A DNA stretch of 64,000 bases from the human T2T-CHM13v2.0 reference genome, Homo sapiens: NCBI RefSeq assembly GCF_009914755.1, contig NC_060938.1; one strand, written 5' to 3'. Below are positions 1 to 3,487 of the stretch, in pieces. The translations under genes were made by a program, and so were the position numbers. The stretch's first letter is position 1, and each line of letters starts with the position of its first letter. A model generated the notes under the pieces. That model was not told the origin of the DNA and searched no databases. It saw only the letters and a program-made list of their open reading frames with translations.

Positions 1-137
1 AGACTGGAAACTGAGGCTCAGAGTGGTGTAAATAAATTGTCTTAGGCAACACTGAATAAATAGCTGTATGAGGATTTAAACCTAGCTCTGTCTGAACCCC
101 AAGTCTATATTCTTTACACTAGATCAGGCTGACTCCC
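1..137 (-). mobile_element. MIR SINE fragment
   Basis: ggaaactgaggctcagag...ggatttaaacctag...tctgtctga is the reverse complement of the MIR core. Confidence 0.7.
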
Positions 138-199
138 ATAATATTTATATTTAAATTTGCATGTTATCTAAATAAAGATCTGAGAGTGACCAGTCCCTT

Positions 200-210
200 T
201 CTGAGCTGTT
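200..210. repeat. Target-site duplication copy (tctgagctgtt), partner at 2490-2500
   Basis: Identical 11-mer flanks the L1 fragment and SVA together. Confidence 0.85.
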
Positions 211-891
211 TTTTTTTTTTCCTTTTTCAAATTTTATTTTACTTTAAGTTTTAGGGTACATGTGCACAACGTGCAGGTTTGTTACATATGTATACATGTG
301 CCATGGTGATGTGCTGCACCCATTAACTCGTCATTTAGCATTAGGTATATCTCCTAATGCTATCCCTCCCCCCTACCCCCACCCCACAACAGTCCCCAGT
401 GTGTGATGTTCCCCTTCTTGTGTCCATGTGTTCTCATTGTTCCATTCCCACCTATGAGTGAGAACATATGGTGTTTAGTTTTTTGTCCTTGCGATAGTTT
501 GCTGAGAATGATGGTTTCCAGCTGCATCCATGTCCCTACAAAGGACATGAACTCATCCTTTTTTATGGCTGCATAGTATTCCATGGTGTATATGTGCCAC
601 ATTTTCTTAACCCAGTCTATCGTTGTTGGACATTTAGGTTGGTTCCATGTCTTAGCTATTGTGAATAATGCTGCAATAAACATACGTGTGCATGTGACTT
701 TATAGCAGCATGATTTATAATCCTTTGGGTATATACCCAGTAATGGGATGGCTGGGTCAAATGGTATTTCTAGTTCCAGATCCCTGAGGAATCGCCACAC
801 TGACTTCTACAATGGTTGAACTAGTTCACAGTCCCACCAACAGTGTAAAAGTGTTCCTATTTCTCCACATCCTCTCCAGCACCCGTTTCCT

Positions 892-894
<3 letters not shown>
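211..894 (-). mobile_element. L1PA (L1PA4-like) 3' end: ORF2 C-terminus, 3'UTR and poly(A); probably a 3' transduction carried by the adjacent SVA
   Basis: ORF 360..800 translates to L1 ORF2 C-terminal peptide ([33 protein letters not shown]); L1PA 3'UTR; poly-T at 209-220. Confidence 0.95.
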
Positions 895-922
<28 letters not shown>

Positions 923-2489
923 ATTGATCATTCTTGGATGTTTCTCGCAGAGGGGGATTTGGCAGGGTCATAGGACAATAGTGGAGGGAAGGTCAGCAGA
1001 TAAACAAGTGAACAAAGGTCTCTGGTTTTCCTAGGCAGAGGACCCTGCAGCCTTCCGCAGTGTTTGTGTCCCTGGGTACTTGAGATTAGGGAGTGGTGAT
1101 GACTCTTAAGGAGCATGCTGCCTTCAAGCATCTGTTTAACAAAGCACATCTTGCACCGCCCTTAATCCATTTAACCCTGAGTGGACACAGCACATGTTTC
1201 AGAGAGCACAGGGTTGTGGGTAAGGTCACAGATCAACAGGATCCCAAGGCAGAATAATTTTTTTTAGTACAGAACAAAATGAAAAGTCTCCCATGTCTAC
1301 CTCTTTCTACACAGACATGGCAACCATCCGATTTCTCAATCTTTTCCCCACCTTTCCCCACTTTCTATTCCACAAAACCGCCATTGTCATCATGGCCCGT
1401 TCTCAATGAGCTGTTGGGTACACCTCCCAGACGGGTTGGTGGCCGGGCAGAGGGGCTCCTCACTTCCCAGTAGGGGCGGCCGGGCAGAGGCGCCCCTAAC
1501 CTCCCGGACGGGGCGGCTGGTCTGGCGGGGGGGCTGACCCCCCCACCTCCCTCCCGGACGGGGTGGCTGCCAGGCGGAGACGCTCCTCACTTCCCAGACA
1601 GGGTGGCTGCTGGGCAGAGGGGCTCCTCACTTCTCAGATGGGGCGGCTGCCGGGCGGAGGGGCTCCTCACTTCTCAGATGGGGCGGCTGCCGGGCGGAGG
1701 GGCTCCTCACTTCTCAGATGGGGCGGCTGCCGGGCGGAGGGTCTCCTCACTTCTCAGACGGGGCGGCCGGGCAGAGACGCTCCTCACCTCCCAGACGGGG
1801 TCGCGGCCGGGTAGAGGCGCTCCTCACATCCCAGACGGGGCGGCGGGGCAGAGGCGCTCCCCACATTTCAGACGATGGGCGGCCGGGCAGAGACACTCCT
1901 CACTTCCTAGATGGGATGGCGGCCGGGAAGAGGCGCTCCTCACTTTCCAGACTGGGCAGCCAGGCAGAGGGGCTCCTCACGTCCCAGACGATGGGCGGCC
2001 AGGCAGAGATGCTCCTCACTTCCCAGACTGGGTGGCGGCCGGGCAGAGGCTGCAATCTCAGCACTTTGGGAGGCCAAGGCAGGCAGCTGGGAGGTGTAGG
2101 TTGTAGCGAGCCGAGATCACGCCACTGCACTCCAGCCTGGGCACCATTGAGCACTGAGTGAACCAGACTCCGTCTGCAATCCCGGCACCTCGGGAGGCCG
2201 AGGCTGGTGGATCACTCGCGGTTAGGAGCTGGAGACCAGCCCGGCCAACACAGCGAAACCCCGTCTCCACCAAAAAAAATACGAAAACCAGTCAGGCGTG
2301 GCACTCGGCAGTCTGAGGCAGGAGAATAAGGCAGGGAGGTTGCAGTGAGCCGAGATGGCAGCAGTACAGTCCAGCTTCTGCTCGGCATCAGAGGGAGACC
2401 GTGGAAAGAGAGGGAGAGGGAGACCGTGGGGAGACGGAGAGGGAGAGGGAGACCGTGGGAAGATGGAGAGGGAGAGGGAGAGGGAGAGC
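895..2489 (-). mobile_element. SVA retrotransposon (SVA_D-like), near full length
   Basis: Poly-T 895-922 with AATAAA (tttatt 920-925); SINE-R ~923-1420; GC-rich VNTR ~1430-2045 (gggcggctgccgggcggaggggctcctcacttctcagat units); Alu-like domain ~2046-2400; CCCTCT hexamer region ~2400-2489. Confidence 0.97.
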
Positions 2490-3487
2490 TCTGAGCTGTT
2501 GAAGTAGACAGAGCTGGTTGTATGCAATGCATCTGCTTTTATGTCCTGAGAGTGAAGAGTGAGCGATCTATAACACTAATTGTCCCTTCGTGCACTAAAG
2601 CAGATTCAACTTCCATAAATCAAAGAACAGTTTCTCTGCCTCTTCAAACCATCCACAGGAAAGTATTTGATGCATGTCTTTTGTGAGCATTCCTTATTTC
2701 TAGTTATTAAAGAGAAAGGCAGAAAGATTGGCCATTTGAGGTGTCTCTCTAACAAAGGACGCTACTAACCTTAAGATGTAATAAAGCATTGTATTACTTT
2801 TATGGCTTTAGTTTATTGGAGTTTGGCTTGGCTGAATTTTCGCTAATATACTTTGCAAACAATCTGTATTTTAAGTAAGTACTTTTTAAATTTCACTGCG
2901 CCTGTTTTATGGAGGCAATTGGAAGAGGAAAAGGAGGACTGTGTATATATGAATCATGTCATTAGAGAGAGATTGCTCTCTGACACAGGGAAATTGTACG
3001 TACCACAATGAATGGACCTCCCTTGAGGGCTACAGACATGTTTTACCAAAGATGCTCTTGGGGAAATTCACGGGGCCAAATGCACTTTTTCTGAGAAAGA
3101 AAATACTCTTTAGGGGATCCAAGCTAGGTATAAATATTGACCATTCTCCTAGAGCTGCAGATAACAACCCTCCACATACAGCTCAACTCCAAGGTATGAC
3201 AAGCACGTGTGGTTGAACATTCATGGTCCTTATGACTCTAGTTTGATAGATTATTTCAGCTGCAACCTTTCCAATTCTCTTTTGGAACATGTTTATTGAT
3301 TTTAAAAGAATGGATGTTGCCTAATGAGATTATTGTTCAACTGTGGTCATTCTGTTCCTTAAAAAATAAAAGCATAATTTTAAATCATGCCTTGATACTT
3401 TAAATGAAAGAATGCACTAAGAAAGCTTGTCTGCTCTTCCCCTTGTCTGACACATACTTGGACTGTATGGATGTTTTACTTTTCCTT

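What the first reader, a model, noticed from the sequence alone, without database searches (positions are those of the whole stretch)
200..2500. SVA and L1PA 3' end inserted as one unit: SVA-mediated 3' transduction of an older LINE
Seen: a single 11-bp TSD (tctgagctgtt, 200-210 and 2490-2500) encloses both elements. On the minus strand the order is hexamer-Alu-like-VNTR-SINE-R-A(n)-L1 3' end-A(n). No TSD flanks the SVA alone. The L1 piece starts at AAAAAGTCAGGAAAC; the window's own L1 (62701-62720, aatcatt|aaaaagtcagg) shows this position is a perfect TT|AAAA L1-endonuclease site. Inference: a source SVA landed sense-oriented inside an L1PA4-like copy elsewhere. Its transcript read through the SVA AATAAA, used the L1 poly(A) signal, and the chimera was retrotransposed here. 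An annotator would call two independent elements of different ages.
Basis: partly seen in the sequence, partly recalled or inferred. Interest (0 to 1): 0.8.

Follow-up and report, generated by a model that had tools for sequence, protein, structure and literature searches.

The report
SVA carrying a chr2 L1 tail
A full-length SVA retrotransposon and a 670-base piece of an older L1 were pasted into chromosome 14 in a single event, and the L1 piece can be traced to one particular L1 copy on chromosome 2, which makes this an ordinary though neatly traceable case of a mobile element carrying neighbouring DNA along.

Summary
On the minus strand, window 200-2500 reads TSD, (CCCTCT)n, Alu-like, VNTR, SINE-R, AATAAA, A-tract, 672 bp of L1 3' end, A12, TSD. 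The exact 11-bp TSD occurs only at the two outer ends.

New here: the L1 piece has one outstanding relative in T2T-CHM13, an L1PA copy at chr2:63,235,492-63,236,940. It is 97-98% identical, against 95% or less for all other scored copies. The two share private variants, and a 26-mer of the odd L1 3' end occurs exactly twice in the genome.

The chr2 L1 runs uninterrupted through the junction site, so CHM13 has no SVA there. That site is the only perfect TT|AAAA site in the chr2 L1. It is also a genome-wide insertion hot spot: 91 loci, including an unrelated SVA-in-L1 on chr5.

Private divergence since the copy event is about 1.5% in the L1 part and 1.6% in the SINE-R, as expected for co-insertion.

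Best reading (0.7): classical SVA 3' transduction from a source SVA allele in the chr2 L1 that has since been lost. Main rival: template switching. This is a known kind of event, of low to moderate interest.

The parts
200..210 (-). Target-site duplication, copy next to the terminal poly(A). The + strand reads TCTGAGCTGTT. Its 3' TT is the primer end of the inferred endonuclease nick CTGTT/GAAG.
211..222 (-). Terminal poly(A) tail, A12 (T12 on the + strand), added after the L1 poly(A) signal.
223..894 (-). Carried-along segment: 672 bp of an L1PA 3' end, from the ORF2 C-terminal region to the 3' UTR with AATAAA. It is copied from the L1 at chr2:63,235,492-63,236,940. It starts at the TT|AAAAAGTCAGG site and has a private 3-nt deletion plus a substitution at 883/884.
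895..922 (-). Internal A-tract, 28 long. It includes up to 5 A that belong to the L1 and 3 A of the SVA AATAAA, and it corresponds to the genomic A-tail of the source SVA under the transduction model.
920..1411 (-). SVA SINE-R region ending in a canonical AATAAA (920-925). It is 98% identical to dozens of SVA copies, with 8 private differences in 498 columns.
1412..2050 (-). SVA VNTR with units of 37-40 bp (boundaries approximate).
2051..2389 (-). SVA Alu-like region, with a private 23-bp deletion at about 2299.
2390..2489 (-). SVA 5' hexamer (CCCTCT)n-type repeats, showing the element is full length. One extra G sits at the very 5' end (c at 2489 on the + strand).
2490..2500 (-). Target-site duplication, copy at the SVA 5' end.

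Best explanation
This is an SVA 3' transduction whose carried segment is part of an old L1.

Steps that are shown:
1. One L1-mediated target-primed reverse transcription event, nicked at CTGTT/GAAG with an 11-bp TSD, inserted a single RNA. That RNA consisted of a full-length SVA, an A-tract, 672 nt of L1 3' end and a new poly(A) tail.
2. The L1 part was transcribed from, or from an allele of, the dead L1PA copy at chr2:63,235,492-63,236,940.
3. The RNA was polyadenylated 12 nt after that L1's AATAAA, upstream of the chr2 L1's own tail.

Steps that are inferred:
4. Roughly 7-16 million years ago an SVA sat in sense orientation in that chr2 L1, at its single perfect TT|AAAA endonuclease site.
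5. Transcription from the SVA ran through the SVA AATAAA and its genomic A-tail into the L1.
6. The SVA-bearing chr2 allele never reached fixation and is absent from CHM13.
For: Single event: the exact 11-bp TSD lies only at the outer ends and there is no inner TSD.

Progenitor L1:
- The chr2 L1 is 98% identical over 660 bp (97.2% over 684 bp). The other 38 scored L1 copies are 94-95% identical.
- In a 37-sequence alignment, ours and chr2 share 23 states that differ from the majority. Four of them (window 468, 611, 654, 777) are seen in 0 of 35 other copies.
- The 26-mer of the aberrant L1 3' end occurs exactly twice in 3.1 Gb.
- The chr2 L1 continues about 760 bp beyond the junction, so it is the parent rather than the offspring.

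Age of the L1 before copying: the shared derived changes, the 95% ceiling to other copies, and only 5 chr2-only against 10 ours-only substitutions (plus a 3-nt deletion) since the split.

Co-insertion: private divergence is 10/672 = 1.5% in the L1 and 8/498 = 1.6% in the SINE-R.

Junction site:
- It is the only TTAAAA in the 1449-nt chr2 L1, but just 1 of 9 runs of A5 or longer.
- The homologous L1 position followed by T10 or more occurs at 91 loci.
- Of the 30 loci held with 3-kb context, at least 25 are elements inserted into an L1 that continues beyond them. Three were not assessable and 2 showed no continuation.
- One of the 91 loci is an SVA with a 17-bp TSD on chr5. This shows that the predicted source configuration arises.

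[quoted passage not shown] An A-tract between SVA and carried sequence fits read-through.
Against: No source SVA is present at the chr2 site in CHM13, which has a clean empty site with the normal 5 T.

There is no sibling with the same L1 tail and none with the same 23-bp Alu-like deletion. The single 2-mismatch hit, on chr1, has a SINE-R only about 91% identical to ours.

CHM13 is one haploid genome, and no ape or pangenome data could be searched.

The junction at an A-run is also what a microhomology-guided template switch would give.

Pfam Frtz exons lie on the same (minus) strand 84 kb upstream of the chr2 L1. A host transcript may therefore run through the L1 in sense orientation and supply an SVA-independent polyadenylated RNA.

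DNA searches of the genome scored only 40 of 9441 and 40 of 2080 candidates, so weaker relatives could have been missed.
Confidence: 0.7

Rival explanations
1. Template-switch chimera. An SVA-independent polyadenylated RNA ending in the chr2 L1 was being reverse transcribed at the chr14 nick, for example a host-gene intron transcript terminated at the L1 AATAAA. After 672 nt, at the A5 run, the L1 reverse transcriptase jumped to the poly(A) tail of an SVA RNA and copied it to its 5' end.
For: The chr2 site is empty in CHM13 and there are no siblings. The junction lies at an A-run, which gives microhomology with a poly(A) tail. The chr2 L1 lies on the same strand as the Frtz-domain exons at chr2:63.32-63.49 Mb and downstream of them. 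A template switch between an mRNA and an SVA RNA has been proposed for SVA-CKS1B copies (PMC12593883, passages). The delins 11-15 nt from the junction in our copy could be an error made by the reverse transcriptase before the jump.
Against: It needs trans-mobilisation of a rare non-retrotransposon RNA plus a jump. The jump would have to land on the one A-run of nine that is also the only perfect endonuclease site and a proven insertion hot spot. Among the 30 loci with context, this junction type is almost always a plain insertion into a continuing L1: at least 25 of 30, with 2 lacking continuation and 3 not assessable. The criterion used in print for a template switch, no poly(A) between the parts, is not met, since an A28 tract is present.
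Confidence: 0.17
2. Two events at chr14. The SVA inserted first, making the 11-bp TSD. Later a 5'-truncated retrocopy of the chr2 L1 RNA inserted in sense orientation into the SVA's poly(A) tail, so its own TSD is hidden in the A-run.
For: A-tracts flank the L1 piece on both sides (A28 and A12). Poly(A) tails are recalled to be favoured targets; this was not tested here.
Against: It needs an independent retrocopy of a dead L1 fragment to land in about 30 bp of one SVA tail. It also needs a nick inside a pure T-run (TTTT/TT), which is not the preferred site. The equal private divergence of the two parts (1.5% and 1.6%) would be a coincidence.
Confidence: 0.05
3. The chr2 copy and our L1 piece are siblings from one active master L1 that carried the shared variants, and our piece was joined to the SVA by template switching from that L1's RNA.
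For: Shared variants could in principle be features of a master element.
Against: The 26-mer marker has only these two copies genome-wide. The chr2 lineage shows fewer private changes (5) than ours (10 plus a 3-nt deletion), so chr2 is not an older insertion. The L1 type looks like L1PA4 or older from the 3' UTR, by recall, which would predate SVA expansion.
Confidence: 0.04

Closest known systems
SVA 3' transduction (read-through of the SVA poly(A) signal). Ostertag 2003, Wang 2005 and Xing 2006 are recalled, not seen. Passages were read in PMC12593883, PMC10681720 and bioRxiv 10.1101/2021.07.12.451456.
   Same: A full-length SVA, its AATAAA and A-tract, then foreign sequence ending at a second poly(A) signal and tail, all inside one TSD. 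The carried sequence maps to one other locus.
   Different: The carried sequence is itself a high-copy repeat (L1), which can only be mapped through private variants. No source SVA sits at the progenitor locus in this genome. Whether this locus is among the 55 high-confidence SVA 3' events listed for CHM13 could not be checked, because the supplements of the preprint are closed.
[quoted passage not shown]
   Same: The progenitor locus is identifiable and the SVA is absent there.
   Different: Those cases are young polymorphic human insertions. This one is old, with about 1.5% private divergence, so the source would have been lost millions of years ago.
Template-switch chimeric retrocopies. The U6-L1 and mRNA-L1 chimeras of Buzdin and colleagues are recalled, not seen. 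The SVA-CKS1B case is in PMC12593883 (passage).
   Same: Two unrelated RNAs joined head to tail inside one TSD, with the 3' partner 5'-truncated.
   Different: Here an A28 tract separates the parts, and the breakpoint is the single perfect endonuclease site of the L1. Both features point to a genomic insertion junction rather than a jump.
SVA inserted in an L1PA at the same L1 position, chr5:72,274,6xx (locus L112).
   Same: It has exactly the configuration predicted for the source: a sense-oriented SVA at TT|AAAAAGTCAGG, with its own 17-bp TSD and the L1 continuing on both sides.
   Different: It is unrelated. Its L1 is 94% identical to ours and lacks the four unique shared variants. The BLAST matches between its SVA and ours are 79-83% identical. 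It shows the site is a recurrent target, not the source.

Membership tests
SVA retrotransposon (full length) | Order of hexamer repeats, Alu-like, VNTR, SINE-R, AATAAA and poly(A) | tested here: met
   Direct reading and TRF. The SINE-R is 98% identical to 39 other genomic SVA copies. The Alu-like region is 87-95% identical to that of 11 of those SVAs.
L1-mediated (TPRT) insertion | Target-site duplication, terminal poly(A), and a T-rich/purine nick site | tested here: met
   An exact 11-bp TSD and an A12 tail. The inferred nick is CTGTT/GAAG, a loose match to TTTT/AA (the consensus is recalled).
SVA 3' transduction | One TSD encloses the SVA plus downstream non-SVA sequence, and no TSD lies around the SVA alone | tested here: met
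SVA 3' transduction | An intact SVA poly(A) signal and A-tract followed by carried sequence that ends at a second poly(A) signal plus a new tail | tested here: met
   AATAAA at 920-925 and the A-tract at 895-922. The L1 AATAAA is followed after 12 nt by A12.
SVA 3' transduction | The carried sequence maps to a single progenitor locus | tested here: met
   chr2:63,235,492-63,236,151 at 98% identity, with unique shared variants and the 26-mer present twice in the genome.
SVA 3' transduction | A source SVA lies directly upstream of the progenitor sequence, with its TSD at the start of the carried segment | tested here: inconclusive
   The site is empty in CHM13. This is one haploid genome, and other human haplotypes and apes could not be searched. 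Missing sources are documented.
Template-switch chimeric retrocopy | No poly(A) between the two parts (the criterion used in PMC12593883) | tested here: not met
   An A28 tract lies between the SVA and the L1. A jump onto a poly(A) tail could still produce one.
Template-switch chimeric retrocopy | The 3' partner RNA exists independently of the 5' partner | not testable with these tools
   Only indirect evidence: the chr2 L1 lies on the same strand as Frtz-domain exons 84 kb upstream. No expression data were available.

The most novel reading that the evidence does not exclude
The 'empty' chr2 site may not be a never-filled allele but a footprint of a vanished SVA insertion.

Four of the 16 changes that separate our L1 piece from the chr2 L1 lie within 20 nt of the endonuclease nick, that is, within one TSD length. 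Two are on the chr2 allele and two (a delins) are on ours. The probability is about 0.001-0.01, assessed post hoc.

If error-prone fill-in of the two TSD copies at a chr2 SVA insertion produced these changes, and the SVA was later removed by recombination between its TSDs, then lost retrotransposon insertions would leave recognisable scars at apparently empty sites.
Probability: 0.05. Interest if true: 0.6.

Novelty: new member of a known kind. Interest (0 to 1): 0.27.

Why it matters
The event itself is textbook retrotransposon biology in a gene desert, and no functional consequence is evident.

Its modest value is methodological. Repeat annotation shows an SVA next to an L1PA of a different age, and transduction pipelines that map carried sequence tend to lose repeat-derived segments. 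Here private variants pin a repeat-derived carried segment to one parent copy among the very many L1 3' ends in the genome (9441 first-look candidates).

This gives three things: a dated link between chr2 and chr14, a prediction that an SVA allele once sat in the chr2 L1, and a clean test locus for separating read-through from template switching once ape T2T assemblies are consulted.

Tried and rejected
- A junction query (window 860-960) against the genome returned only SVA 3' ends, with 40 of 977 candidates scored. It was not informative.
It was replaced by the plain pattern.
- The chr5 SVA-in-L1 (L112) was considered as the source and rejected: its L1 is 94% identical, it lacks the shared unique variants, and the BLAST matches between the two SVAs are 79-83% identical.
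- The private 23-bp Alu-like deletion was used to look for the SVA lineage. It gave one 2-mismatch hit on chr1, whose SINE-R is only about 91% identical to ours, so it is not a close relative.
- The private L1 21-mer across the deletion is unique in the genome, so the deletion is not inherited from any CHM13 copy.
- The SVA subfamily (A-F) and the L1PA subfamily number were not determined, because no reference consensus library was on hand. 'L1PA4 or older' rests on recall of 3' UTR motifs.
- Xing et al. 2006 could not be opened under the id I recalled. The supplements of the T2T repeat preprint are closed, so it is unknown whether this locus is already listed.
- No complex or structure tools were relevant.
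Full report
**What is there**

Reading window 1-2800 together with Tandem Repeats Finder gives the following order on the minus strand:
- AACAGCTCAGA (2500-2490).
- One G, then CCCTCT-type hexamer repeats (2489-2390).
- An Alu-like region (about 2389-2051).
- A VNTR of 37-40-bp units (about 2050-1412).
- SINE-R (1411-923) ending in AATAAA (925-920).
- An A-tract (T28 at 895-922 on the + strand).
- 672 bp of L1 3' end (894-223) with its own AATAAA.
- A12 (222-211).
- AACAGCTCAGA again (210-200).

The 11-mer occurs only at these two places in 64 kb. The chance expectation is 0.08 matches, and 1 of 100 shuffles reached two. No direct repeat brackets the SVA alone or the L1 alone.

On the + strand the primer end is ...GCTGTT, followed in the unfilled target by GAAG. 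This is a loose L1-endonuclease site.

**Where the L1 piece comes from**

A whole-genome DNA search with window 223-894 scored 40 of 9441 first-look candidates. It gave one hit that stands apart: chr2:63,235,492-63,236,151, 98% identical over 660 bp. The other 38 scored L1 copies were 94-95% identical. A local BLAST gave 97.2% over 684 bp for chr2, against at most 95.5% for the rest.

I aligned our piece, the chr2 copy and 35 other L1 3' ends with MAFFT. Of the 35, 30 came from the hot-spot loci described below, so they are not a random sample. Ours and chr2 share 23 states that differ from the majority, and four of these (window 468, 611, 654, 777) occur in none of the 35 others.

The two copies also share an aberrant 3' end. 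The 26-mer across it occurs exactly twice in the 3.1-Gb assembly, at chr2 and here. A further 24 places match with one mismatch.

The chr2 element continues as L1 for about 760 bp beyond the junction position. It can therefore be the parent of our piece but not its offspring.

Our tail begins 12 nt after the L1 AATAAA. At that point the chr2 sequence continues with about 25 nt of other sequence before its own A-run. The RNA was therefore polyadenylated afresh inside the chr2 sequence.

**Timing**

Within the 672-bp body, ours has 10 private substitutions plus one 3-nt deletion, and chr2 has 5 private substitutions.

The SVA SINE-R differs from the majority of its 11 nearest relatives at 8 of 498 columns. 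The Alu-like part has 8 substitutions in 346 bp, a one-base insertion and a private 23-bp deletion.

Private divergence is thus 1.5% in the L1 part and 1.6% in the SINE-R. This is what co-insertion predicts. By contrast, the L1 part as a whole is about 5% from other L1 copies, so it was already old when copied.

With assumed neutral rates of 1.0-1.5e-9 per site per year (the rates are recalled), the event dates to roughly 7-16 million years ago.

**The source problem**

In CHM13 the chr2 L1 reads straight through the junction (...gctgac ttttt aatgatcacc...), with the normal five T and no SVA.

No other copy of this L1 tail exists in the assembly. No SVA shares the 23-bp Alu-like deletion, apart from a 2-mismatch hit on chr1 whose SINE-R is only about 91% identical to ours. 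The 21-mer across our small L1 deletion is unique.

So the progenitor of the carried segment is identified, but the source SVA is not.

**Why read-through from a lost source is still the best reading**

1. The junction is the only TTAAAA in the 1449-nt chr2 L1, yet only one of nine runs of A5 or longer.
2. The homologous position in other L1 copies is a proven target. The L1 motif followed by T10 or more occurs at 91 loci.
   - A crude motif classifier over the other 90 loci called 68 Alu, 12 L1 and 10 unclassified.
   - By eye, the 10 unclassified are one SVA, about four Alu, about three L1 and two rearrangements.
3. Among the 30 of these loci held with 3-kb context, BLAST shows the L1 resuming right after the insert in 20. 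Inspection of 7 of the remaining 10 adds 5 more. Three (L1 inserts longer than the flank) could not be assessed, and two (L031, L032) show no resumption. This junction type is therefore normally made by insertion into an L1.
4. The one other SVA at this position, on chr5 (locus L112), has exactly the predicted source architecture, with a 17-bp TSD. It is unrelated to ours: its L1 is 94% identical, and the BLAST matches between the two SVAs are 79-83% identical.
5. Missing sources are documented. A study of polymorphic SVAs traced 84% of insertions carrying a transduction to source elements. [quoted passage not shown]

Pfam Frtz exons lie on the minus strand at chr2:63,320,294-63,492,159. The chr2 L1 is on the same strand, 84 kb downstream of the last of them. 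If the gene extends that far, the L1 is sense-oriented in an intron. The gene name WDPCP and its 3' end are recalled, not tested. A sense-oriented SVA there would plausibly be selected against. This is inference.

**Rivals**

Template switching is the main alternative. An SVA-independent RNA ending in the chr2 L1 would be reverse transcribed at chr14, with a jump at the A5 run onto the poly(A) tail of an SVA RNA.
- For it: the empty site, the lack of siblings and the possible host transcript. Such a switch has been proposed for SVA-CKS1B copies (PMC12593883).
- Against it: it needs a rarer chain of events, and it does not explain why the breakpoint is the unique endonuclease site. The printed criterion (no poly(A) between the parts) is not met.

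A nested insertion of a chr2 L1 retrocopy into the tail of a pre-existing SVA, and a sibling-of-one-master model, are each less likely. The first needs a very small target and treats the equal ages as coincidence. The second conflicts with the two-copy marker and with chr2 having fewer private changes than ours.

**Unexplained**

Four of the 16 events that separate ours from chr2 lie within 20 nt of the nick. In ours there is a delins at positions 16-19 from the nick. In the empty chr2 allele there are substitutions at positions 11 and 20.

A binomial test gives P about 0.001, or about 0.01 if the delins counts as one event. The test is post hoc. The distance equals a typical TSD length.

The cluster may be chance, reverse-transcriptase error (which would explain ours only), or a scar of TSD processing at a former chr2 insertion.

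**Comparison with what is known, and verdict**

SVA 3' transduction is well described. Its frequency in CHM13 has been catalogued as 55 high-confidence SVA 3' events (bioRxiv 10.1101/2021.07.12.451456, passage read). I could not see the tables.

This locus is a further member of that kind. Its minor points of interest are that the cargo is a repeat that can nevertheless be traced, and that the source allele is gone. It lies in a gene desert, and no functional effect is apparent.

Noticed in passing
L112 (chr5:72,272,500-72,279,500), SVA at L112 2087-4102: An unrelated, more diverged SVA sits in sense orientation in a long L1PA at exactly the same L1 position. Its own 17-bp TSD is CTGTTTCCTGACTTTTT (L112 2070-2086 and 4103-4119). 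It is a natural example of the source configuration postulated for chr2.
   Followed up: yes
91 genomic loci matching GTTTCCTGAC+T10; loci L022-L111: The TT|AAAAAGTCAGG site near the end of L1 ORF2 is a recurrent target for sense-oriented L1-mediated insertions. The 91 loci have a poly(A)-tailed element abutting it, mostly Alu, some L1 and one SVA, and typically show a TSD with the L1 continuing beyond the insert.
   Followed up: partly
L114 2161-2180 (chr2) and window 874-894: There is a cluster of four changes within 20 nt of the endonuclease nick, two on the empty chr2 allele and a delins on the chr14 copy. About 0.5 would be expected.
   Followed up: partly
chr2:63,320,294-63,492,159: Exons matching Pfam Frtz (PF11768) lie on the minus strand upstream of the chr2 L1, which is on the same strand. 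The progenitor L1 is therefore probably sense-oriented inside or just downstream of that gene. The gene's extent is known only from recall.
   Followed up: partly
window 2299 (Alu-like region of the SVA): A private 23-bp deletion relative to 10 of 10 compared SVAs. The only similar junction in the genome (2 mismatches, on chr1) belongs to an SVA that is not closely related.
   Followed up: yes
L114 1440-1500 (chr2, 3' of the L1): The chr2 L1 does not end in a plain A-tail. About 25 nt of non-L1 sequence separate its AATAAA region from an A20 run followed by GAAAAA repeats. This may be a short 3' transduction or a decayed tail of that older L1.
   Followed up: no
L031 and L032 (chr3:22.85 Mb and chr3:34.16 Mb): These are two of the 30 hot-spot loci where the L1 does not resume after the T-run (non-L1 sequence in L031, a truncated Alu in L032). 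They could be chimeras, deletions or 5'-truncated L1s, and were not resolved.
   Followed up: no
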